From IMG/VR virus record IMGVR_UViG_2671180854_000003, positions 1 through 8,663 of that record: a stretch of DNA of 8,663 nt; one strand, 5' to 3'. The position numbers and the translations under genes were made by a program. The notes under the pieces were generated by a model. It saw only the letters and a list, made by a program, of their open reading frames with translations. It did no database searches and was not told where the DNA came from. Position 1 is the stretch's first letter. Every line of letters begins with the position of its first letter. Positions 1 to 8,405 of the stretch are shown piece by piece. The DNA is from a virus (lineage: Duplodnaviria > Heunggongvirae > Uroviricota > Caudoviricetes).

Positions 1-411
1 ATGCCTGCCCCCGTCGTCCTGATCCTTGCGGCCGGGCGTGGAGAGCGCTTTCTCGCCTCCGGGGGAAATACCCATAAGTGTATCGGCTGGCGTCAGTCCC
101 CGGAGGTTGCGCCTTATCGCTGGCCATTTGAAGAAAACGGGAGAACTTTCGACCTTGCGATTGAACCGCAGATTACGACTAATGATCTGCGTCTGATGTT
201 GAGGCTGGCTCTTGCCGGCGGAGGAATAACAATTGCCACTCAGGAAACTTTCAGGCCATATATTGAAAGCGGTAAGCTTGTATCGCTGCTTGATGACTTT
301 CTTCCACAATTTCCGGGCTTCTATCTGTATTTCCCACAGCGTCGCAATATTGCACCAAAGCTCCGCGCCCTGATTGACTACGTCAAAGAATGGCGGCAGC
401 AATTGGCTTAA
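1..411 (+). CDS. yagP: LysR-family transcriptional regulator, C-terminal effector-binding portion only (136 aa; no N-terminal HTH in window); probably a truncated gene or pseudogene
   Basis: ORF at window edge; C-terminal tail ...IAPKLRALIDYVKEW is typical of LysR-family regulators; size and position beside a tRNA-Thr fragment match my memory of the yagP locus in E. coli K-12 (not verified). Confidence 0.55.
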   Translation: MPAPVVLILAAGRGERFLASGGNTHKCIGWRQSPEVAPYRWPFEENGRTFDLAIEPQITTNDLRLMLRLALAGGGITIATQETFRPYIESGKLVSLLDDFLPQFPGFYLYFPQRRNIAPKLRALIDYVKEWRQQLA

Positions 412-537
412 ATGTCTGCACCTGCACTGCCTGATGTCAGAACAGTATTTTGATGAATTGCCAAGGTTACAATGGCACAAATACGGCACAGGAGGAAACG
501 TGGTGTATTTAAATATGGGGTAACTCTTTGATTTTAA

Positions 538-583
538 TGATGCCGATAATAGGAGTCGAACCTACGACCTTCGCATTACGAAT
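538..583 (-). pseudogene. Partial tRNA-Thr(CGU) copy: anticodon loop through acceptor 3' end, no 5' half; integration-site (att) remnant of a thrW-targeting element
   Basis: Reverse complement of 541-583 reads AATTCGTAATGCGAAGGTCGTAGGTTCGACTCCTATTATCGGCA, which matches the 3' half of E. coli tRNA-Thr(CGU) as I remember it (anticodon CGT, T-loop GGTTCGACTCC); sequence diverges completely beyond 584; the CCA end reads TCA (one mismatch). Confidence 0.75.
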
Positions 584-1023
584 TATAAGAATCCGATTCT
601 AATTCAAAGCATTACCCCATCAACACTGCGCTCACACGTCCCGCCACATCAAAACATGTAAAGCCTTGCAAGCCATTGCGAGGCCTTATGTGTCTCAGTT
701 TTGTCCCACCTTGTATTACGACTTGCATAGCCAATGAAGATAAATGTGACGACAAACGGCGCAGCAGTCTTCTTTTCTTTCATACTTTCCCACACCCGGC
801 TTGCATACCTTTCTGCCATAACTATAGTGAATGTCTGTTATGAGAGAGAGACGGAAGTCCCCCACTTTATAAGTCAGTTAATGGAGAAATTACTAGCAGA
901 CGGTGTACTTGGAACAAGTTAATGGATTATAATGATAAATTAAGCATCGTTATGATTTGAAATACTTAATTATGCTAATATTGATGGAAGCAATGAATTT
1001 TAAGACATGCATAGAGTTATAAA

Positions 1024-3834
1024 ATGATAAATTTAAATCCACTTTCTTTTTCTGAATATGACTTGAACGAAATATTGAATGCCAGTCAAGATAATAAGTT
1101 AGTTCTTTTTATTGGTGCTGGTTTTTCTAAATTCAGCGAAACGGAATTAATAAAAATACCAACCTGGAGGGAGTTAATAAATGAGCTAAAAGACGACTTA
1201 GGATTGTCTGAAGAAAATGATTATTTAAAAATAGCCCAACTTTACTTTCTTCAATACGGACAAAACTCTTATGTTAAAAAAGTCAAATCAATAATTAGAG
1301 ATTTGAAACCAAGTTTTTTTCATAAGATGCTATTTGAATTAAACCCCCACTATATAATTACAACCAACTGGGATAGTTTGCTTGAAAAAACTGCACAAGA
1401 CATAGGATTGGCTTATGATTTAGTTAGTTCTGACGTGGACCTGGCACAAAGTCATTTGGACAAGAAAATTATAAAGATGCATGGGGATTTTCGACAGAAT
1501 AATTTTGTTTTTAAAGAGGATGATTACTTACAGTACAGCCAAAATTTTCCACTTATCGAAAATTTTATAAAAGGAATATTCTCAACAAACACTGTTGTGT
1601 TTTTAGGATACTCTTATAGTGATTATGATTTAAAACAGATTGTTTCATGGGTTACAACTATATCAAAAGCAACACCAAGAAAATATTTGCTCCAGAAAAA
1701 TCATGATGCAGCCCAGGCTCTTTACTTAAGAAATCATGGGATATCCTTGTTGACACCGATGAATACTGACATTAGCTATCATGATCTTTATTCAAAATTT
1801 TTCAGTGATTTCAAGCTTGTTAAAAACCAAGATGAGTTTATAAAGAGGACCCTGATCTATACTGAGTCAAAGGTAAAAAAAATAGAAGATGACCTGAGAA
1901 TGTCTGATTTTGATAAAAATAAATTGAAGAATGATATTCAATGTATTGTAACAAAAAAAATAAATAAATATGTTGATAGCAAACTAAAAGCATTAACACA
2001 ATACAAAGTATTGCTCCCTGAGCAGATCAGTAAAAAATTAACTAATAGTACCATTGATTATGATAAGTCTGGGGTTAAACTAACCTCCCACAATAATATT
2101 TTGACGACTGATTATGACGAGTATAGCAGGAAAATAAATAGCATATACCTTAATGACATTTTGAGTAAAAATACTCACTTAAAAAAGACATTCTCATCTA
2201 TTTTGGAAAAGGCATTTATAAATACAGTTAGTTATGACTCGAAACTGTATGAGGTGATTAGTTCTTCAGAATTAGAGTCTGAGCTATACAATAAGATTTC
2301 TTTCGCTTATTCAAAGGATAATGCTGAAATACTTCTTATTAACAAGGAATATGGCAAACTTCTCGATATTCTTATTTCGAAAGTAAAGCTTCATCTTAAT
2401 GAGAGAAACTATATTCTCGCCACCATTCACATGTCTAATTTTGATTATGCTTACAGGATGTTGAAGTCGGATTTACACTGTAACGGTAAGGACATTGATG
2501 AAGATTGTAAATCAATAATGGAAAGCCATACTCCATTTGAGTTTAAAAGTAAAACAATTGATTTTCCACGGGGGGTGCAAAGTGAGCTACAAGAATTAGT
2601 AAAGATGCTTGAATTTAATGAAATATACAAAGCTTACTATCGATTTGACGTTGAATCGAAGAAGAATTTAGGGTACTCACAAATAAGAAAGAGTGGTGGA
2701 ATAGCATTTTCCAATGATGAATTTAAAACAAGAGCGAAACTGTACCCTTATGTGTATTTCATTTTAGGCAACGAAATTTTAATTGAAGAATATAAAGAGG
2801 TTAAACAATTTTTCGAATTTAATATTCTTAGTAGCCTCGAACACTATCTATGCGAAGAGATATTCTATGTTAATAGAATCGATCTATTTATGTTAATAAA
2901 ATACTGCGAGACAGAAAAACTCAAAAAATTTTTAAGTAAGGTAATAAAAGACAAAATAATAATCAGCACCAGCAAACTTGACAAAAGAGAAGTTCACCAT
3001 ATTAAGAAATATTTACTCAACTCTCTCGAAAACATATGCAACCTGATTAGGTTGAAAAATAAAAATTTTATTCATACCACTTCAATAGATCGATGGACCA
3101 ATAATTTATTGATTATATTAGGATGTGTTCCGTGGAGTTCAAACCAGTTAAAGAAAATAATAAATGGTTTGCTTCCTTTGTTAGAAGGCAGAACTAATAA
3201 CATAAATATTTATGAAAACATACATAATCTTCTAGCTGTGAATGAGTTTTTGTATCAAAAATCCCATGATGATATGTTAAAAATCCTGGATGTAATACTT
3301 ATAAAAATCAATACAGGAGAGTTAAATGGTTATGACCAGCATGTAATTAACTCCAATATCTTACGAAACATTTACATATTATCAGAGAATCATAATTACG
3401 AATACAAAAACACTGAACTATTAACATTAGCGTTAACAAAAATACAATTATTTGATGATAAGTGGAAAAGATCCATCACTAAGAGTTTATTATTGAACAT
3501 CAAAAGGATTGGCTCTCCTGAGGTCGTTGACATTATAGACAAGTTTATTAACAGTAATATTTTAAACCTACCACTGGCAACAGTAAGCGATATTATGGAA
3601 TGTTTGCATTTAGTCGCAAGCGGATGTGCCATGCCTGATCAATTTCTTGAGGTTATTAACAAATTTGTTTCTGAAAACATCCCGAATAAATTAGGCGAGT
3701 TAGATTTCATTACAGCTGGTGTAGAAAGTGATTTTCCTAACTTAATTAAAAGCCTTATAAAGGATAGAGGCTTTGTTGAATTTCAAGACACATTGGACAT
3801 ATTCAATGAACGAATGCAATCTCTAAAAAAATAA
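1024..3834 (+). CDS. SIR2-like (sirtuin/NADase-type) domain protein, 936 aa: N-terminal SIR2_2-like domain (~aa 1-300) plus ~630-aa C-terminal region of unknown function; candidate single-gene anti-phage defence protein (DSR-like architecture)
   Basis: Long uninterrupted ORF; N-terminal motifs LVLFIGAGFS (aa 26-35), ITTNWD (Asn115, nt 1366-1368), KMHGD (His153, nt 1480-1482), VVFLGYSYSD match the layout of SIR2-type NAD-binding/catalytic motifs in ThsA/DSR-type defence proteins; no Walker A P-loop seen; gene is far more AT-rich (~25-33% GC on sampled lines) than flanks (~50-55%). Confidence 0.8.
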   Translation: MINLNPLSFSEYDLNEILNASQDNKLVLFIGAGFSKFSETELIKIPTWRELINELKDDLGLSEENDYLKIAQLYFLQYGQNSYVKKVKSIIRDLKPSFFHKMLFELNPHYIITTNWDSLLEKTAQDIGLAYDLVSSDVDLAQSHLDKKIIKMHGDFRQNNFVFKEDDYLQYSQNFPLIENFIKGIFSTNTVVFLGYSYSDYDLKQIVSWVTTISKATPRKYLLQKNHDAAQALYLRNHGISLLTPMNTDISYHDLYSKFFSDFKLVKNQDEFIKRTLIYTESKVKKIEDDLRMSDFDKNKLKNDIQCIVTKKINKYVDSKLKALTQYKVLLPEQISKKLTNSTIDYDKSGVKLTSHNNILTTDYDEYSRKINSIYLNDILSKNTHLKKTFSSILEKAFINTVSYDSKLYEVISSSELESELYNKISFAYSKDNAEILLINKEYGKLLDILISKVKLHLNERNYILATIHMSNFDYAYRMLKSDLHCNGKDIDEDCKSIMESHTPFEFKSKTIDFPRGVQSELQELVKMLEFNEIYKAYYRFDVESKKNLGYSQIRKSGGIAFSNDEFKTRAKLYPYVYFILGNEILIEEYKEVKQFFEFNILSSLEHYLCEEIFYVNRIDLFMLIKYCETEKLKKFLSKVIKDKIIISTSKLDKREVHHIKKYLLNSLENICNLIRLKNKNFIHTTSIDRWTNNLLIILGCVPWSSNQLKKIINGLLPLLEGRTNNINIYENIHNLLAVNEFLYQKSHDDMLKILDVILIKINTGELNGYDQHVINSNILRNIYILSENHNYEYKNTELLTLALTKIQLFDDKWKRSITKSLLLNIKRIGSPEVVDIIDKFINSNILNLPLATVSDIMECLHLVASGCAMPDQFLEVINKFVSENIPNKLGELDFITAGVESDFPNLIKSLIKDRGFVEFQDTLDIFNERMQSLKK

Positions 3835-3845
3835 AGCCACTGAGA

Positions 3846-3892
3846 TAGGGCTGCTCTCTGTCAATTACCGCTCTTGGCACATAGCAGCCCTA
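3846..3892. repeat. Perfect 10-bp inverted repeat (TAGGGCTGCT ... AGCAGCCCTA) with 27-nt spacer, in the gap between the convergent SIR2 gene and pin
   Basis: Read directly: 3846-3855 is the reverse complement of 3883-3892. Confidence 0.6.
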
Positions 3893-4054
3893 GAAATGGT
3901 GACGTATAGTCATAGATGGTCGGTGACAGGAGATGCAAATCATCTCATACAAAAATACGTAAAATCAATAACGGCTAGAAATTATTCAACACTCGCACTA
4001 TCGACATTTCACCAGCTAACCGTAGCACGTTCTTGCATACGACGTGCTACGGTT

Positions 4055-4609
4055 TCATTTATCTCCAACCGGAAACTTCTTATACAGTGTCGATATACCA
4101 ACATCATAGATGATCGCCACCTTCTGGCGAGGAACGCCTGATGCAATTAATCGCCCGGCCTGCGCCCATTGTTCTGGTGTAAGTTTGGGACGACGTCCCC
4201 CAATTCGTCCCTGTGCGCGAGCAGCTTCCAGTCCAGCTTTTGTTCGTTCAACAATCAGTTCTCGTTCCATTTCAGCCAGGGCACCCATCACATGAAAGAA
4301 AAAACGCCCCATCGGTGTGCTGGTATCAATAGCATCCGTCAGGCTGCGAAAATTAACGCCACGTTCGCGCAACTCCTCAACCAGAATGACCAGATGCCGC
4401 ATACTACGCCCCAGCCGATCCAGTTTCCAGACCACCAGAGTGTCACCTGCCGATAATGTCCTGAGCAGTTTTTTCAGTCCCGGTCTTTCGGACTTCGTAC
4501 CGCTTATCTTGTCTTCAAAAATCAGTTCACATCCTACACAGTTCAACGCATTACGTTGTAGATCGGTGTTCTGGTCATTTGTTGATACGCGAACATAGCC
4601 AATAAGCAT
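4055..4609 (-). CDS. pin: Serine-recombinase DNA invertase, Pin/Gin/Hin/Cin family (184 aa from ATG at 4609)
   Basis: Translation MLIGYVRVSTNDQNTDLQRNAL...VVWKLDRLGRSM...GRIGGRRPKL is near-identical in pattern to Pin/Gin invertases (catalytic Ser in YVRVST motif, C-terminal HTH); the ORF-track start at 4645 adds a 12-aa extension that homologues lack. Confidence 0.9.
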   Translation of the reverse strand: MLIGYVRVSTNDQNTDLQRNALNCVGCELIFEDKISGTKSERPGLKKLLRTLSAGDTLVVWKLDRLGRSMRHLVILVEELRERGVNFRSLTDAIDTSTPMGRFFFHVMGALAEMERELIVERTKAGLEAARAQGRIGGRRPKLTPEQWAQAGRLIASGVPRQKVAIIYDVGISTLYKKFPVGDK

Positions 4610-4635
4610 GGTAGATCCCCCAGGTAAAAGCAGGA

Positions 4636-4971
4636 ATGATGCCATTTGCTCGTTATTTCTGCATTTTCATAAACCTTGGTTTTGGAGAAGGTGCTAACTG
4701 GGTTATGTTACCTGGAGGAATGATAATTCAGCGTGTTTATCTTGGATTTCCTGTCGGCACCAATGTAAGACACATAACTTTCCCCCGGTCGTTTACAACA
4801 ACGAACTATTCCATCTCAATTAACTGGAATGATATCGGTACTGTAACAACTGAAACACAATCGCCAGCAAATGTGGCGGTTGTTCATCAAACAAAATCAT
4901 TAACAGGGGCCAGCATCTGGCAGGCAGGTCCCGGGGGATTTAATGTGGACATTATAGCGGTGGGGTATTGA
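4636..4971 (+). CDS. Alternative tail-fibre C-terminal cassette (Sv'-type), currently in the silent orientation; would be fused to the constant stf 5' part after inversion
   Basis: ORF encodes NLGFGEGA across the crossover site, mirroring ENLGLGEGA at the second site inside stf; followed directly by a tfa gene; the ATG at 4636 lies outside the invertible segment and is probably not a real start. Confidence 0.5.
   Translation: MMPFARYFCIFINLGFGEGANWVMLPGGMIIQRVYLGFPVGTNVRHITFPRSFTTTNYSISINWNDIGTVTTETQSPANVAVVHQTKSLTGASIWQAGPGGFNVDIIAVGY
4664..4689. other. Invertase crossover site (gix/hix-like), invertase-proximal: TTTTCATAAACCTTGGTTTTGGAGAA
   Basis: Quasi-palindromic 26-mer with AAACC-NN-GGTTT core resembling Hin/Gin recombination sites; lies ~55 bp upstream of the pin start. 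Confidence 0.7.
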
Positions 4972-4972
4972 T

Positions 4973-5401
4973 ATGTACGTATGGAGCGCTAAAGCAAATG
5001 GCTTTTTCCCCATATCGGAGAAAGAAAAATTTGAGGCATCAGGTCTGTGGCCTGATGATGGTGTAATAGTCAGTGAGGAAGAACATAAGAAGTTATTTAT
5101 GGATATTCCACCAGGAAAACAGATTGGAACACTGAATGGAAAACCAGCACTGATAGATATTCCTCAGCCGACCAAAAAGGAATTAATAGCTATTGCTGAA
5201 GTTAAAAAATCCCAATTACGGGAAAAAGCTGACAGTGAAATATCCTGGCGTCAGGATGCTGTTGATGCTGATATCGCAACTGATGAAGAAGCTACAACTC
5301 TCACCCAATGGAAGAAATACCGTGTGCTGCTGATGCGTGTTGATACGTCAACAGCACCCGATATTGAATGGCCTACGCCTCCGGCAGTTCAGGCCAGATG
5401 A
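4973..5401 (+). CDS. Tail fibre assembly protein (Tfa/Mu U-like), partner of the alternative cassette
   Basis: 142-aa ORF with C-terminal motif KKYRVLLMRVDTSTAPDIEWPTPP typical of phage tail-fibre assembly chaperones. Confidence 0.8.
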   Translation: MYVWSAKANGFFPISEKEKFEASGLWPDDGVIVSEEEHKKLFMDIPPGKQIGTLNGKPALIDIPQPTKKELIAIAEVKKSQLREKADSEISWRQDAVDADIATDEEATTLTQWKKYRVLLMRVDTSTAPDIEWPTPPAVQAR

Positions 5402-5966
5402 TATCCGGCGCGGTGCTGGTATCTGTTGCCGTCACCGCGTCAATGTAATCCAGCACGGCGTTAAGTCGGGTTGTTTCTGCCTGAGTCAGTTTCCGTCCGG
5501 CCTGTAATTTCAGCTGAATCAGACTAATGGAAGCCATTGCTGCATCAATCAGTGACTGGCGCTGTGCTTCTGCCGCGTCTACTGCGGCACTGTGTTGTGC
5601 CTCAGTGTCTGTCACCCATTTCTCACCATCCCATTTATCGTATGGCGTTAACGGTGAAATCGTGACATAACCGTCTTTGATGGCACCGATATAATCCACT
5701 GTAACAGCTGCGCCATTTTCGATTGAGTAAACAGTCTCATTGCGATGGTCTTCTTCATGGCGCCATCCCTTACCTGTAAATACTGCCACTCTTCCCGGAA
5801 TGTTTTCGCCAGGGTCAATACCAGTGGAACAGGCGGGCATACTTACGCCAGTATTAATATATTCATCAGACCAGCCCGTATACTCAGATGTTTCAGCATC
5901 ATAATAAAAACAACGCATATCGCCCGGCACTGTAGCCAGCCCATTTTCATCAAAAACAGGTTTCAT
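5373..5966 (-). CDS. Tail fibre assembly protein (Tfa/Mu U-like), partner of the currently expressed tail-fibre variant
   Basis: 197-aa ORF with C-terminal motif DTSTAPDIIWPELPEA; start overlaps stf stop (TAATG at 5964-5968). Confidence 0.85.
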   Translation of the reverse strand: MKPVFDENGLATVPGDMRCFYYDAETSEYTGWSDEYINTGVSMPACSTGIDPGENIPGRVAVFTGKGWRHEEDHRNETVYSIENGAAVTVDYIGAIKDGYVTISPLTPYDKWDGEKWVTDTEAQHSAAVDAAEAQRQSLIDAAMASISLIQLKLQAGRKLTQAETTRLNAVLDYIDAVTATDTSTAPDIIWPELPEA

Positions 5967-6712
5967 TATTTAGCCCTCACCAGAAAGTTAAATGCAATAT
6001 TTCGCGGTCTGACAGCAACAAAATTCACACCATCACCCACAGAGTTACTGGTGAAATTAAATCGTGAAAATCCTGGCTGATTTCCGGCGATGCCATCATG
6101 AAAGTTAATTGCGTGTCCCGCACCTTCGCCTATATTCCCGGCAAACTGAGAAAAGTTTGTAGCTGCCTGCCAGCTTAATAATTCGCGACCACCGTCTGCA
6201 CCTCGCCCGTCATCCCAGATACGAATGAAATCACCGCGGGCTTCAGGTAATACCAGCGAAGGAAACACTTTCGCCAGCACAGGATAATCAGTGGCAGAGA
6301 ATTTCGCGCCGTTGAACTTCAAAAACACCATACTGGACCAGCTGTCGATTACAGTATTTGGCATTGCAGCGGACGGCCAGAAGAACGGAACGCCAATAGC
6401 TGGAGCACCTTCTCCCAAACCAAGGTTTTCGAGAGCTGTTTTCACCGTGCCATCCGATTTGATATCGCCAAACGGATTCTTGCGGCTTAACAGCAGCGCA
6501 CGAAGCGCGGTAAGCAGCTGGTCGTGCCTCTCCTTCTCCAGGCTGGCACCGGATGCCTCCACCACGCTACAAAGCTCTTCCTGCAACATGTCAAAGTAGT
6601 CATCATCCAGATCGGTGGCAGGCGTGCCGGTCTGGGGGTTGCCACGGGTAAAACCGTTCTTACCCGCGCCGAACTTATCCTTCTGCGCGGTTTTCGTGTC
6701 TATGCGATGCAT
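5966..6712 (-). CDS. Short side tail fibre protein (248 aa): constant N-terminal part (outside the invertible segment) fused to variable C-terminal part (inside it)
   Basis: N-terminus [20 protein letters not shown]... and glycine-rich body typical of e14/Mu-type tail fibres; crossover site lies inside the ORF at aa ~93-101; followed by a translationally coupled tfa. Confidence 0.85.
6410..6435. other. Invertase crossover site (gix/hix-like), distal, inside stf: TTCTCCCAAACCAAGGTTTTCGAGAG
   Basis: Its reverse complement matches the 4664-4689 site at 21 of 26 positions; central dinucleotide AA versus TT shows the two sites are in inverted orientation. Confidence 0.7.
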
Positions 6713-6715
6713 GGA

Positions 6716-7300
6716 TTACTCCGGATATTTAAAAATTACGTAGGTATGAGACGGACAGAGTTTGTTAAGCACACATTCGACAACGGTATCGCCCCAGATA
6801 CGCAGTGCGGAATCACAGGGATCGCCACATGTCATCCAGGTGGTGTTTGTGGCGGCTGGCATGTTGACCTGCCAGTAATACCGCCATTCCGGCGCATTCA
6901 CCGCGTCAGTACAGGCCGATGAGCAGGTGAACGTGCTTTTGTCGTATCGCGTGATGGTAGCGTCTGGTCTGCCCAGGGCAGCAAGCTGTGCAAGATAAAA
7001 ATTCTCGTTGATGCCGCCCGCCAGGTTAACCTTCGCATCCAGCCGTTGCTGACGCTGGCGAAGGGTCTGTGTCCCTGCGGGAATACATTCATCCGGCAGA
7101 CCGCACAGACGCTCCCAGCGGTTTATCAGTTCGGTGGTGGTGCGCGGATCCAGCTCCCGCATCAGGGCATCCGCACGCTGATGAACGCGGGTTAATGACG
7201 GTGCCGCACCGGCAATCGACGGATCGCTGGCTGACCACGCCGGACCGGGGGGCAACAGTGCCGACAACAGACGGATGTAATCATCGTTTGTCACGTCCAT
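6716..7300 (-). CDS. ymfQ: Phage tail/baseplate protein, YmfQ/DUF2313 family (Mu gp48 / P2 gpI-like position), 194 aa
   Basis: 194-aa ORF immediately upstream of stf with a 3-nt gap (translational coupling); sequence beginning [22 protein letters not shown] recalls the e14 YmfQ family (from memory). Confidence 0.7.
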
Positions 7301-7449
7301 GAAATCGTCCCCAGTACCGCCAGTTCATTTTTTGCAATGGAGATATTGTCTGCCGGTGCAAGCAACTGATGGCTGTATTCCCCGTTCGCACCGGAAATCG
7401 CCTCACTGATACGCGATACCTTCAGTTCTCCCTGCGGATATGGGCAGCT
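7291..7449 (-). pseudogene. Probable 3' remnant (~52 codons) of a baseplate-J-like tail gene, truncated at its 5' side
   Basis: Open frame on the minus strand from the Rz stop down to a TGA at 7291-7293 that overlaps the ymfQ start by 8 nt (typical tail-operon overlap); no start codon or 5' part present; identity as J-like is inferred from gene order only. Confidence 0.3.
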
Positions 7450-7911
7450 CTATCTGCACTGCTCATTAATATACTTCTGGGTTCCTTCCAGTTGTTTTTG
7501 CATAGTGATCAGCCTCTCTCTGAGGGTGAAATAATCCCGTTCAGCGGTGTCTGCCAGTCGGGGGGAGGCTGCATTATCCACGCCGGAGGCGGTGGTGGCT
7601 TCACGCACTGACTGACAGACTGCTTTGATGTGCAACCGACGACGACCAGCGGCAACATCATCACGCAGAGCATCATTTTCAGCTTTCGCATCAGCTAACT
7701 CCTTCGTGTATTTTGCATCGAGCGCAGCAACATCACGCTGACGCATCTGCATGTCAGTAATTGCCGCGTTCGCCAGCTTCAGTTCTTTGGCATTTTTGTC
7801 GCGCTGGGCTTTATAGGTAATGGCGTTATCACGGTAATGATTAACAGCCCATGACAGGCAGACGATGATGCAGATAACCAGAGCGGAGATAATCGCGGTT
7901 ACTCTGTTCAT
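7450..7911 (-). CDS. Rz: Rz-type i-spanin (153 aa from ATG at 7911)
   Basis: Translation [41 protein letters not shown]... closely matches lambda Rz as I recall it; start overlaps the endolysin stop (ATGA). Confidence 0.9.
7509..7691 (-). CDS. Rz1: Rz1-type o-spanin lipoprotein (60 aa), embedded in the +1 frame inside Rz
   Basis: Translation [26 protein letters not shown]...PPPPPAW... with lipobox (VVGC) and proline-rich region, as in lambda Rz1. Confidence 0.85.
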
Positions 7912-8405
7912 TGCTGACCCCACAAACAGATTTCACGCTCAATCTCACGACGAGTCATGAGACCTTTCCATTGCTTACCGCCAGCATATGTCCAGCGACG
8001 TAACTGATCACATGCGCCTTTGATATCGCCCTGGTTTATTTTGCGAAGAAGCGTCGATGTTCTGAAATTGCCAGCACCCACGTTGTAAACGAATGAGTAA
8101 AGAGCGCCGCGCGTTGTTTCCGGTATATCGACTTCGATGTATGGGTTAATTTGTCTGGCGACAGTGGCAAGGTCTTTATTCAAGAGTGCTTTGCATTCTG
8201 CTTTGGTATACGTTTTACCGAGCATGATGTCTTTTCCTGTATGCCCGTGACATACGGTCCATACACCAACAATATCTTTGTATGGTATGTAGCTGACACC
8301 TTCCAGACCATCGTTACCACTTGGGCCAGTGATTAACACTGATGCTATAGCAATTGCTCCGCCACCAATAGCAGCAGCAACGGCTTTTCGTAATGATGGA
8401 GGCAT
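7908..8405 (-). CDS. SAR-type endolysin (phage lysozyme, P21 R / DLP12 RrrD-like), 165 aa
   Basis: N-terminal signal-anchor-release segment [30 protein letters not shown] followed by lysozyme body; near-identical to P21-type endolysins from memory; start overlaps holin stop (TAATG). Confidence 0.9.

What the first reader, a model, noticed from the sequence alone, without database searches (positions are those of the whole stretch)
584..3895. Compositional island between the tRNA-Thr att remnant and the prophage tail module
Sampled lines inside 1024-3834 run at roughly 25-33% GC, against about 50-55% in the LysR fragment and in the phage genes from 3900 onward. The block starts after the partial tRNA copy and ends within ~15 bp of the SIR2 stop codon, where a perfect inverted repeat sits. 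This looks like a horizontally acquired cargo (moron) placed at a prophage-end hotspot rather than ancestral phage or host DNA. The AT-rich upstream region (~900-1023) is a likely promoter region and a likely target for H-NS silencing.
Basis: partly seen in the sequence, partly recalled or inferred. Interest (0 to 1): 0.55.

Follow-up and report, generated by a model that had tools for sequence, protein, structure and literature searches.

The report
DSR2-like defence gene in prophage slot
The AT-rich block is real and is a swapped-in cargo gene, a distant relative of the anti-phage NAD-destroying enzyme DSR2, sitting in a variable slot at the end of an SfV-like prophage where other E. coli strains carry different defence genes; this is a good but fairly ordinary example of a known pattern.

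Summary
The compositional island exists, but it is narrower than reported. Maximum-likelihood GC breakpoints fall at 865 and 3835, with 30.6% GC inside against 49.2% outside. Positions 584-858 are 43-46% GC and are conserved phage end, not island.

The backbone is an SfV/SfI/SfII/SfIV-like prophage integrated at tRNA-Thr, on the paoD side. The island lies between attP and the tail-fibre/pin genes. This is the slot, and the orientation, in which Shigella SfV carries gtrABC.

The SIR2 gene occurs in 14 of 5,426 complete E. coli genomes, while the att-flank module occurs in 997. In other strains the slot holds Ppl, PD-T4-3, Avs2, a RES-domain gene, a SMEK-domain gene, an autotransporter, or nothing.

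The single 936-aa ORF is a divergent homologue of DSR2:
- The family profile matches B. subtilis DSR2 at E 4.5e-60 over residues 29-749.
- The predicted fold matches full-length DSR2 (TM 0.62-0.65).
- The catalytic Asn115 and His153 are invariant in the family.
- It misses NCBIfam's Dsr2 cut-off and shows no DSR model among its PADLOC hits.

The most likely function is a single-gene abortive-infection NADase. NADase activity, the trigger, the promoter and H-NS silencing are untested. I rate it a new member of a known kind, of modest interest.

The parts
1..411 (+). Host flank: C-terminal fragment of a LysR-family regulator downstream of paoD. It marks the chromosomal side of the junction.
   Evidence: Pfam LysR_substrate 1.4e-14. 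RefSeq annotates it as an incomplete LysR pseudogene next to paoD in all comparison loci.
539..584 (-). att core: a 46-base copy of the 3' part of tRNA-Thr, read on the complementary strand. It carries one G-to-A change relative to the other loci.
   Evidence: Window 530-583 matches annotated tRNA-Thr genes at 94-100% identity. No whole tRNA is found. The Sf phages have a 46-bp attP and integrate in thrW (PMC3851460). The substitution is visible in alignment A3.
585..808 (+). Conserved phage end (attP flank), 43-46% GC, not part of the AT-rich island. It contains a strong hairpin at 654-693.
   Evidence: Window 520-708 is 94-97% identical to the attP/int-proximal region of SfI, SfII, SfIV and SfV. 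It is shared by all comparison loci. The hairpin folds at -21.5 kcal/mol, z -4.3. This position is annotated 'terminator' in SfII.
809..858 (+). A 5' end of about 50 bp common to cassettes with unrelated cargo and absent from the empty allele.
   Evidence: Alignment A5: shared by the SIR2, RES, Ppl, Avs2, SMEK, IS/AraC, hyp+AAA and phi458 loci, and missing in L020 and L021.
859..1023 (+). AT-rich (29.7% GC) leader specific to the SIR2 cassette and presumed to be the promoter region. It has a perfect -10 hexamer at 928-933.
   Evidence: GC. It is unique to SIR2-carrying loci. Only weak promoter-like matches were found, so promoter function is not shown.
1024..3834 (+). Cargo gene: a 936-aa DSR2-like defence-associated sirtuin. 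The SIR2 NADase domain spans about aa 14-273, with Asn115 and His153. A helical middle domain and a C-terminal solenoid span about aa 274-936.
3846..3892 (+). Stem-loop 12 bases after the stop codon that straddles the cassette/backbone junction. The left arm is cassette-specific and the right arm lies in the shared module. It has no U-tract.
   Evidence: It was not called as a terminator by the scan.
3868..4054 (.). Conserved right-hand module of about 190 bp that follows each cargo in the slot. It ends in the pin terminator hairpin at 4018-4054.
   Evidence: It recurs after RES, Ppl, hyp, SMEK, Avs2 and phi458 Orf54 at 76-92% identity, and twice in L016. The hairpin folds at -22.6 kcal/mol, z -5.2, with compensatory changes visible in A4.
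4055..4645 (-). pin (pinE-like) serine DNA invertase, the first backbone gene after the slot. The annotated start in relatives corresponds to Met13 of this ORF.
   Evidence: Pfam Resolvase 1.5e-51 plus HTH_7. RefSeq annotates pinE in the comparison loci.

Best explanation
Positions about 809-3879 are an exchangeable cargo cassette. It sits in the attP-proximal slot of an SfV-like, Mu-tailed, pin-carrying prophage integrated at tRNA-Thr on the paoD side of E. coli. This is the position, and the transcription direction, in which Shigella SfV carries its gtrABC O-antigen genes.

The cassette holds one gene for a 936-aa protein that is a divergent homologue of the defence-associated sirtuin DSR2. 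It has an N-terminal SIR2 NADase domain with the catalytic Asn and His, followed by a helical middle domain and a C-terminal alpha-solenoid.

By analogy with B. subtilis DSR2, the protein is expected to be inactive in the lysogen. Binding of a protein from an infecting phage to the C-terminal solenoid would switch on NAD+ hydrolysis, which would abort the infection.

Shown here:
- the compositional step;
- the rarity of the gene within a common slot;
- the alternative cargoes, several of them matching models of named anti-phage systems;
- homology and predicted fold similarity to DSR2 along the whole length;
- conservation of the catalytic residues;
- occurrence as a lone gene on several kinds of mobile element.

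Inferred: NADase activity, abortive infection, oligomeric state, the trigger, and expression from its own promoter in the lysogen.
For: Composition: breakpoints at 865 and 3835, 30.6% against 49.2% GC, GC3 30.5%.

Backbone: window 520-708 matches the attP flank of SfI/II/IV/V at 94-97% identity. Window 6409-7440 matches SfV orf19-21 at 96%. The SfV map reads tfa, terminator, gtrV-gtrB-gtrA, attP, int. The literature places the Sf serotype-conversion genes next to int-attP, with integration in thrW (PMC3851460).

Hotspot: SIR2 is in 14 of 5,426 genomes, while the att-flank module is in 997. Other occupants are:
- Ppl (PADLOC 5e-157) and PD-T4-3 (2e-140);
- Avs2;
- RES-domain gene, SMEK-domain gene, an AAA ATPase pair, an autotransporter and an acyltransferase;
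- an empty allele.

Protein:
- profile against DSR2, E 4.5e-60 over DSR2 residues 29-749;
- Foldseek top 44 hits all full-length DSR2, TM 0.62-0.65;
- N115 and H153 align to DSR2 N133 and H171, are invariant in 32 homologues, and are required for DSR2 NADase activity (PMC10981675).

Genomic context of homologues: single-gene status, with no shared neighbour in a lambdoid prophage, an ICE, a mobilisable island and a GmrSD-adjacent site. The gene is AT-rich in all of these hosts.
Against: The protein scores 67 bits against NCBIfam's Dsr2 equivalog model, whose cut-off is 1400. No DSR model appears among its PADLOC hits, which are only the SIR2 parts of ThsA and weak candidates. By current annotation rules it is therefore not a DSR2.

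Identity to DSR2 is about 17% overall. The last 230 or so residues, where DSR2 binds its trigger, do not align by sequence. One DSR2 tetramerisation residue (Tyr71) lies in a segment absent here.

The structure is a prediction. No functional data exist for this protein or its family (no paper mentions WP_000609167). No isolated phage in the INPHARED set carries it. No convincing promoter or canonical terminator was found.
Confidence: 0.8

Rival explanations
1. The SIR2 protein is a lysogenic-conversion factor that serves host physiology or virulence, for example as a protein deacylase or ADP-ribosyltransferase, rather than an anti-phage NADase.
Against: The closest structural and sequence relatives of the SIR2 domain are all defence NADases: DSR2, KomC, ThsA and Avs5. 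The C-terminal two thirds match only DSR2. Homologues sit on assorted mobile elements and next to GmrSD. In DSR2 the acetyl-lysine channel is blocked (PMC10981675).
Confidence: 0.08
2. The gene is one component of a multi-gene system, either Thoeris-like ThsA or an Avs5-type SIR2-STAND, and needs a partner or an NTPase module.
Against: Those matches cover only the SIR2 domain, aa 15-230. Pfam finds no SLOG, TIR or NTPase domain. The model is all-helical after residue 270, with only two short hairpins. No neighbour is conserved across five contexts, and in this window the gene stands alone between att and pin.
Confidence: 0.04
3. The AT-rich block is ancestral to this phage lineage. It would be a fast-evolving or H-NS-shaped region rather than acquired cargo, and the apparent hotspot would reflect repeated loss.
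For: Every occupied slot shares the same 50-bp 5' end and the same right-hand module. The empty allele could be a microhomology deletion.
Against: The gene is in 14 of 5,426 genomes against 997 with the flank. The SIR2 copies are 99% identical or more, while the flanks differ by 3-10%. Unrelated genes occupy the same interval. Close homologues (84% and below) occur in Serratia, Klebsiella and Enterobacter on other elements.
Confidence: 0.03

Closest known systems
DSR2 (defence-associated sirtuin 2) of Bacillus subtilis 29R, a tail-tube-activated NADase (Garb et al. 2022; cryo-EM structures 8K98, 8WKS, 8WY8 and others)
   Different: Identity is about 17% overall. The last 230 or so residues do not align by sequence. 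Tyr71 of the DSR2 tetramer interface lies in a segment absent here. The protein fails the NCBIfam Dsr2 cut-off (67 against 1400 bits) and hits no PADLOC DSR model. The host is a gamma-proteobacterium and the carrier is a myovirus-tailed prophage. The trigger is unknown.
gtrABC / oac serotype-conversion locus of Shigella flexneri phages SfV, SfI, SfII and SfIV
   Same: The phage backbone is the same, as is the slot between the tail-fibre genes and attP, the orientation (read from att inward) and the tRNA-Thr integration. GC is also lower than the backbone: 38% for the SfV gtr region.
   Different: The cargo is a cytoplasmic NADase-type defence protein rather than membrane O-antigen-modifying enzymes. 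This phage also carries pin and an invertible tail-fibre segment between the slot and the fixed tail genes.
Prophage-encoded defence hotspots and classical morons, such as the P2/P4 hotspots (from my own knowledge of Rousset et al. 2022) and mcrA next to pin at the end of e14 (own knowledge)
   Same: Conserved flanks bracket a highly variable, AT-rich interval that holds one or a few defence genes per strain. Here these include Ppl, PD-T4-3, Avs2 and the DSR2-like gene.
   Different: The phage family and the slot differ. The cassettes here share a defined 50-bp 5' end and a right-hand module of about 190 bp, can be stacked, and have an empty allele joined at ACATA. I found no paper describing this slot as a defence hotspot. 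My searches were limited.

Membership tests
DSR2 (defence-associated sirtuin 2) | N-terminal SIR2 domain with the catalytic Asn and His (DSR2 N133 and H171) | tested here: met
   Pfam SIR2_2 3.4e-24. N115 and H153 align to N133 and H171 and are invariant in 32 homologues.
DSR2 (defence-associated sirtuin 2) | Helical middle domain plus C-terminal alpha-solenoid sensor following the SIR2 domain, in one polypeptide of about 1000 aa | tested here: met
DSR2 (defence-associated sirtuin 2) | Recognition by curated family models (NCBIfam NF041819 Dsr2 equivalog; PADLOC DSR models) | tested here: not met
   The protein scores 67 bits against a cut-off of 1400, and only over the SIR2 part. No DSR model appears among the PADLOC hits at E <= 0.01.
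DSR2 (defence-associated sirtuin 2) | Acts as a single gene without a conserved partner | tested here: met
   The gene is a lone ORF here. No neighbour is shared in the Enterobacter, Citrobacter, Yersinia and Avibacterium contexts.
DSR2 (defence-associated sirtuin 2) | Tetramer whose NADase is switched on by a phage tail tube protein, causing NAD+ depletion and abortive infection | not testable with these tools
   This needs biochemistry and infection assays. D166, which aligns to D188 of the DSR2 tetramer interface, is invariant, but Y71 has no counterpart.
Thoeris ThsA | SIR2 domain fused to a C-terminal SLOG domain, encoded next to a TIR-domain ThsB | tested here: not met
   PADLOC ThsA hits cover only aa 15-230. 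No SLOG or TIR domain is found in Pfam. No adjacent gene lies in the slot.
Avs5 (SIR2-STAND) | Central STAND NTPase (NOD) between the SIR2 domain and the sensor | tested here: not met
Moron / prophage cargo hotspot | Present in some and absent from other closely related prophages, at a fixed position between conserved flanks, with deviant composition | tested here: met
Moron / prophage cargo hotspot | Own promoter and terminator, allowing expression from the repressed prophage | tested here: inconclusive
   A stem-loop follows the stop codon but has no U-tract. Only weak promoter-like matches lie upstream. No expression data were available.
Integron-type gene cassette | IntI integrase with attI, and an attC imperfect palindrome at each cassette end | tested here: not met
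   The window has no IntI; the only recombinase is the serine invertase Pin. The cassette 5' end and the right module are no more similar to each other than shuffled sequence. The two matches to the core of the pix (pin inversion) site lie only at 4664-4689 and 6410-6435, not at the cassette junctions.

The most novel reading that the evidence does not exclude
The slot may not be just a recombination-prone interval. It could be a dedicated cassette dock. Unrelated cargoes share a defined 50-bp 5' end and a right-hand module of about 190 bp, can be stacked with one module per cargo, and have an empty allele joined precisely at an ACATA microhomology. These features would fit a site-specific or transposition-like cassette exchange mechanism in SfV-like prophages. 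In addition, the gamma-proteobacterial DSR2-like clade, with its divergent C-terminal tip, might sense a trigger other than a siphovirus tail tube while tolerating the tail tube of its own myovirus-type carrier.
Probability: 0.08. Interest if true: 0.6.

Novelty: new member of a known kind. Interest (0 to 1): 0.3.

Why it matters
The finding adds an untested, divergent enterobacterial branch to the DSR2 family that current defence-finder models miss. Defence inventories of E. coli therefore undercount it.

It also shows that the slot known for O-antigen serotype conversion in the Shigella Sf phages serves in E. coli as a defence-gene hotspot. The flanks are well defined: 709-858 on the left and 3868-4054 on the right. 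They can be used as handles to mine the slot across Enterobacteriaceae for new candidate systems, such as the RES-domain, SMEK-domain and AAA ATPase cargoes seen here.

It does not overturn anything. The pattern and the mechanism class are both established.

Tried and rejected
1. Cassette ends as att-like repeats. I tested whether the 5' end (809-858) is a diverged direct repeat of the start of the right module (3880-3935). Local alignment scores are no better than shuffles, so I rejected this.

2. Pin as the agent of cassette exchange. Of five loose matches to the pix-site core, no more than chance predicts, only the two exact ones sit in full 26-bp inverted sites. These are 4664-4689 and 6410-6435, which bound the tail-fibre segment and are not at the cassette junctions. 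Rejected.

3. The stem-loop at 3846-3892 as a canonical intrinsic terminator. Neither strand has a U-tract immediately after the stem. Its left arm is cassette-specific and its right arm is backbone. Function is left open.

4. ORF 3896-4141 (81 aa, plus strand) as a gene. It overlaps the conserved non-coding module and the 3' end of pin. It has no Pfam or NCBIfam hit and is unannotated in RefSeq loci. Treated as spurious.

5. Rfam search of the whole window. Only two sub-threshold matches were found: IS009 at 5169-5352 (48.6 against 117 bits) and CssrB at 4021-4077 (36.7 against 76 bits). Nothing lies in the island.

6. Looking for the gene in isolated phages. tblastn against 50,697 phage records gave only two weak SIR2-domain hits.

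7. Literature searches. Searches for the protein accession and for thrW/prophage/defence hotspot found nothing specific.
Full report
**Observation**

A sliding GC profile and a two-breakpoint maximum-likelihood segmentation agree that the window holds one sharply bounded low-GC block. The best breakpoints are 865 and 3835, with a log-likelihood gain of 147 nats.

| Segment | GC |
|---|---|
| 859-3869 (block) | 30.6% |
| 1024-3834 (ORF) | 30.3% (GC3 30.5%) |
| Rest of window | 49.2% |
| 584-708 | 45.6% |
| 709-858 | 43.3% |

GC3 is 40-61% in most neighbouring phage genes and 33% in one tail-fibre-assembly gene. The right edge is as stated.

The inverted repeat after the stop codon is real. Its arms are 3846-3864 and 3874-3892, with a perfect 10-bp outer core. 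It folds at -27.2 kcal/mol, z -3.0.

ARAGORN finds no complete tRNA. However, window 530-583 matches annotated tRNA-Thr genes at 94-100% identity. The 46-base core at 539-584 corresponds to the 46-bp attP reported for the Sf phages (PMC3851460).

**Layout of the window**

| Coordinates | Strand | Feature |
|---|---|---|
| 1-411 | + | LysR-family fragment next to paoD (host side) |
| 539-584 | - | att core |
| 585-858 | + | conserved phage end, with a strong hairpin at 654-693 |
| 859-3869 | + | AT-rich block with a single 936-aa ORF |
| 3868-4054 | . | conserved module ending in the pin terminator hairpin |
| 4055-4645 | - | pin invertase |
| 4664-4689 and 6410-6435 |. | 26-bp pin inversion (pix) sites bounding an invertible tail-fibre-tip and assembly-gene segment |
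| 5966-6712 | - | tail fibre |
| 6716-7300 | - | Mu gp48/ymfQ-like gene |
| about 7440 onward | - | abrupt junction to a DLP12-like Rz/lysozyme cassette |

**Which phage, which slot**

Window 520-708 is 94-97% identical to the attP-proximal region of the Shigella flexneri phages SfI, SfII, SfIV and SfV. Window 6409-7440 is 96% identical to SfV orf19-21.

In SfV the order is: tail-fibre assembly gene, terminator, gtrV-gtrB-gtrA, attP, int. After integration, the gtr operon therefore lies at the prophage end and is read inward from att. The SIR2 ORF has exactly this position and orientation.

The literature states that in these phages the serotype-conversion genes lie next to int-attP and that the phages integrate into thrW (PMC3851460). 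The block thus occupies a known lysogenic-conversion slot of a known phage family. The difference is that this phage also has pin and an invertible fibre segment next to the slot.

**Is it acquired cargo?**

- The SIR2 gene is in 14 of 5,426 complete E. coli genomes. All copies are chromosomal and 99% identical or more.
- The att-flank module 530-858 is present at 80% coverage or more in 997 genomes.
- Homology between the window and loci with other cargo breaks at 708/709, 843 or 858 on the left. On the right it breaks at 3868, 3870, 4018, 4056 or 4209. These positions bracket the GC steps.

Occupants of the same interval in other strains:

| Cargo | Locus |
|---|---|
| TrlF-type ATPase, a full-length match to PADLOC Ppl (5e-157) | L005 |
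| GIY-YIG protein, a full-length match to PD-T4-3 (2e-140), with an AraC gene | L003, L018 |
| Avs2 | L017 |
| RES-domain protein plus two hypotheticals | L004 |
| AAA ATPase pair | L016 |
| SMEK-domain protein | L019 |
| Autotransporter | L006 |
| SIR2 stacked with PD-T4-3 and an acyltransferase | L002, L007 |
| Type II restriction-modification system after an empty first slot | L020 |
| Empty (att flank, module, pinE) | L021 |

All these inserts are below backbone GC, at 34-45%.

**Fine structure of the slot**

All occupied slots share a 5' end of about 50 bp, equal to window 809-858. They also share a right-hand module of about 190 bp starting at window 3868, at 76-92% identity. This module ends in the pin terminator hairpin, which shows compensatory changes, and it occurs twice where two cargoes are stacked.

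The empty allele joins window ~807 to ~3880 inside an ACATA/CATA microhomology. At least 17 records carry it. I cannot tell whether this is a microhomology deletion or an unoccupied target.

The idea that the two cassette ends are diverged att-like repeats failed a shuffle test. The two matches to the pix-site core are not at the junctions. Exchange by homologous recombination between the conserved flanks is the simplest account.

**The protein**

Pfam sees only SIR2_2 at aa 111-242. Sequence search of the PDB puts B. subtilis DSR2 first: E 6.6e-35, query aa 14-273. Asn115 and His153 align with DSR2 N133 and H171, the residues whose mutation reduces DSR2 NADase activity (PMC10981675).

A database search found a compact family of proteins of about 936 aa. 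Members occur in Enterobacterales, Aeromonas, Gilliamella, Acinetobacter, Neisseria and Avibacterium. In a 32-member alignment N115, H153 and D166 are invariant.

A profile of that alignment matches DSR2 at E 4.5e-60 over DSR2 residues 29-749, far beyond the SIR2 domain.

An AlphaFold model built from the alignment is confident (pLDDT 86, pTM 0.76).
- Foldseek's top 44 PDB hits are all full-length DSR2 chains, with about 960 aligned columns, TM 0.62-0.65 and 17% identity.

The C-terminal 647 residues alone find only 83 cluster representatives among 1.84 billion proteins. Nearly all full-length hits are 890-950 aa, and the last 90 or so residues are the least conserved.

**Genomic context of homologues**

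Homologues are lone genes with no shared neighbour. They were found:
- in the nin region of a lambdoid prophage in Enterobacter;
- inside an ICE in Citrobacter;
- on a mobilisable island in Yersinia;
- beside GmrSD and an IS element in Avibacterium.

In each host the gene is 25-31% GC whatever the flanks.

**Mechanism**

The best-supported account is a single-gene, DSR2-type abortive-infection system. The SIR2 domain would be held inactive until a phage protein binds the C-terminal solenoid. NAD+ would then be hydrolysed and the infection would fail.

Homology, predicted fold, catalytic residues, single-gene status and mobility are shown here. Enzymatic activity, oligomeric state, trigger and phenotype are inferred from DSR2. 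Because the sensor tip is the most divergent part, a tail tube trigger is possible but uncertain.

**Membership**

The protein meets the architectural and catalytic criteria for DSR2. It fails the curated model thresholds: NCBIfam Dsr2 scores 67 bits against a cut-off of 1400, and no DSR model is among its PADLOC hits. I therefore call it a divergent DSR2-like family member, not a DSR2 equivalog.

It is not ThsA, because it has no SLOG domain and no ThsB neighbour. It is not Avs5, because it has no NTPase domain. The slot is not an integron, because there is no IntI or attC.

The AT-rich leader (859-1023) contains a perfect TATAAT at 928-933, but with a poor -35 hexamer. The standard scan reports no plus-strand promoter there. 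H-NS binding is plausible for 30% GC DNA, on general knowledge, but no data were available.

**Verdict**

The interpretation as acquired cargo at a prophage-end hotspot is supported. The cargo is a previously unclassified, untested relative of a known defence protein, sitting in a known kind of locus. Interest is modest. The defined cassette ends and the empty allele are the only unusual elements.

Noticed in passing
window 4664-4689 and 6410-6435 (segment 4690-6409): Two 26-bp pin inversion (pix) sites in inverted orientation (TTTTCATAAACCTTGGTTTTGGAGAA and TTCTCCCAAACCAAGGTTTTCGAGAG) bound a 1.75-kb invertible segment. The segment holds alternative tail-fibre tips and two opposed tail-fibre assembly genes. 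Homology with other strains breaks exactly at 4690, consistent with segment shuffling.
   Followed up: partly
window ~7437-7445: The SfV-like tail module stops about 140 bases upstream of ymfQ, inside the 3' end of the baseplate J gene. It is joined directly to a DLP12-like lysis cassette (Rz 7450-7923, lysozyme 7908-8405, essD-like beyond). In other genomes that cassette borders an IS3-family element. None of the eight best-matching complete E. coli genomes listed spans this junction, so it is a strain-specific rearrangement or deletion.
   Followed up: partly
L021 3625-3650; L020 3625-3650 (equivalent to window ~807 joined to ~3880): This is an 'empty slot' allele in at least 17 complete genomes. 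The att flank is joined to the right-hand module inside an ACATA microhomology. It lacks the 50-bp cassette 5' end and the first 12 or so bases of the module. It could be either a deletion scar or an unoccupied target.
   Followed up: partly
window 660-719; L002 9792-9850; L007 13482-13540: A 60-bp copy (90% identity) of the att-flank hairpin region recurs between the acyltransferase cargo and the tail-fibre assembly gene. It occurs in loci where SIR2 is stacked with PD-T4-3 and an acyltransferase.
   Followed up: no
window 649-847: This stretch is 88.6% identical to DNA of phage 21 and several lambda hybrids. It contains a 56-aa minus-strand ORF (649-819) with a hydrophobic centre, annotated 'hypothetical protein' in some of those phages. 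It may be a small conserved gene at the phage end.
   Followed up: no
window 541: The att core reads TGATGCC where all six comparison loci and the tRNA-Thr gene read TGGTGCC. This single G-to-A change lies in the part corresponding to the acceptor end of the tRNA.
   Followed up: no
L004 2998-4377, 5032-5706, 5900-7198; L016 5565-6344, 6956-8760; L019 5722-6828: Several occupants of the same slot have no PADLOC match or were not scanned. They are a RES-domain protein with two hypotheticals, a hypothetical plus an AAA ATPase pair, and a SMEK-domain protein. Their position makes them candidate defence genes.
   Followed up: partly
window 4055-4645: The mechanical ORF for pin is 196 aa. RefSeq relatives start 12 codons later (MLIGYVRVS..., 184 aa), so the true start is probably at 4609.
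   Followed up: no
window 5169-5352 and 4021-4077: Two sub-threshold Rfam matches: IS009 (48.6 bits against a gathering score of 117) inside the invertible segment, and CssrB (36.7 against 76 bits) over the pin terminator hairpin. Both are probably not significant.
   Followed up: no
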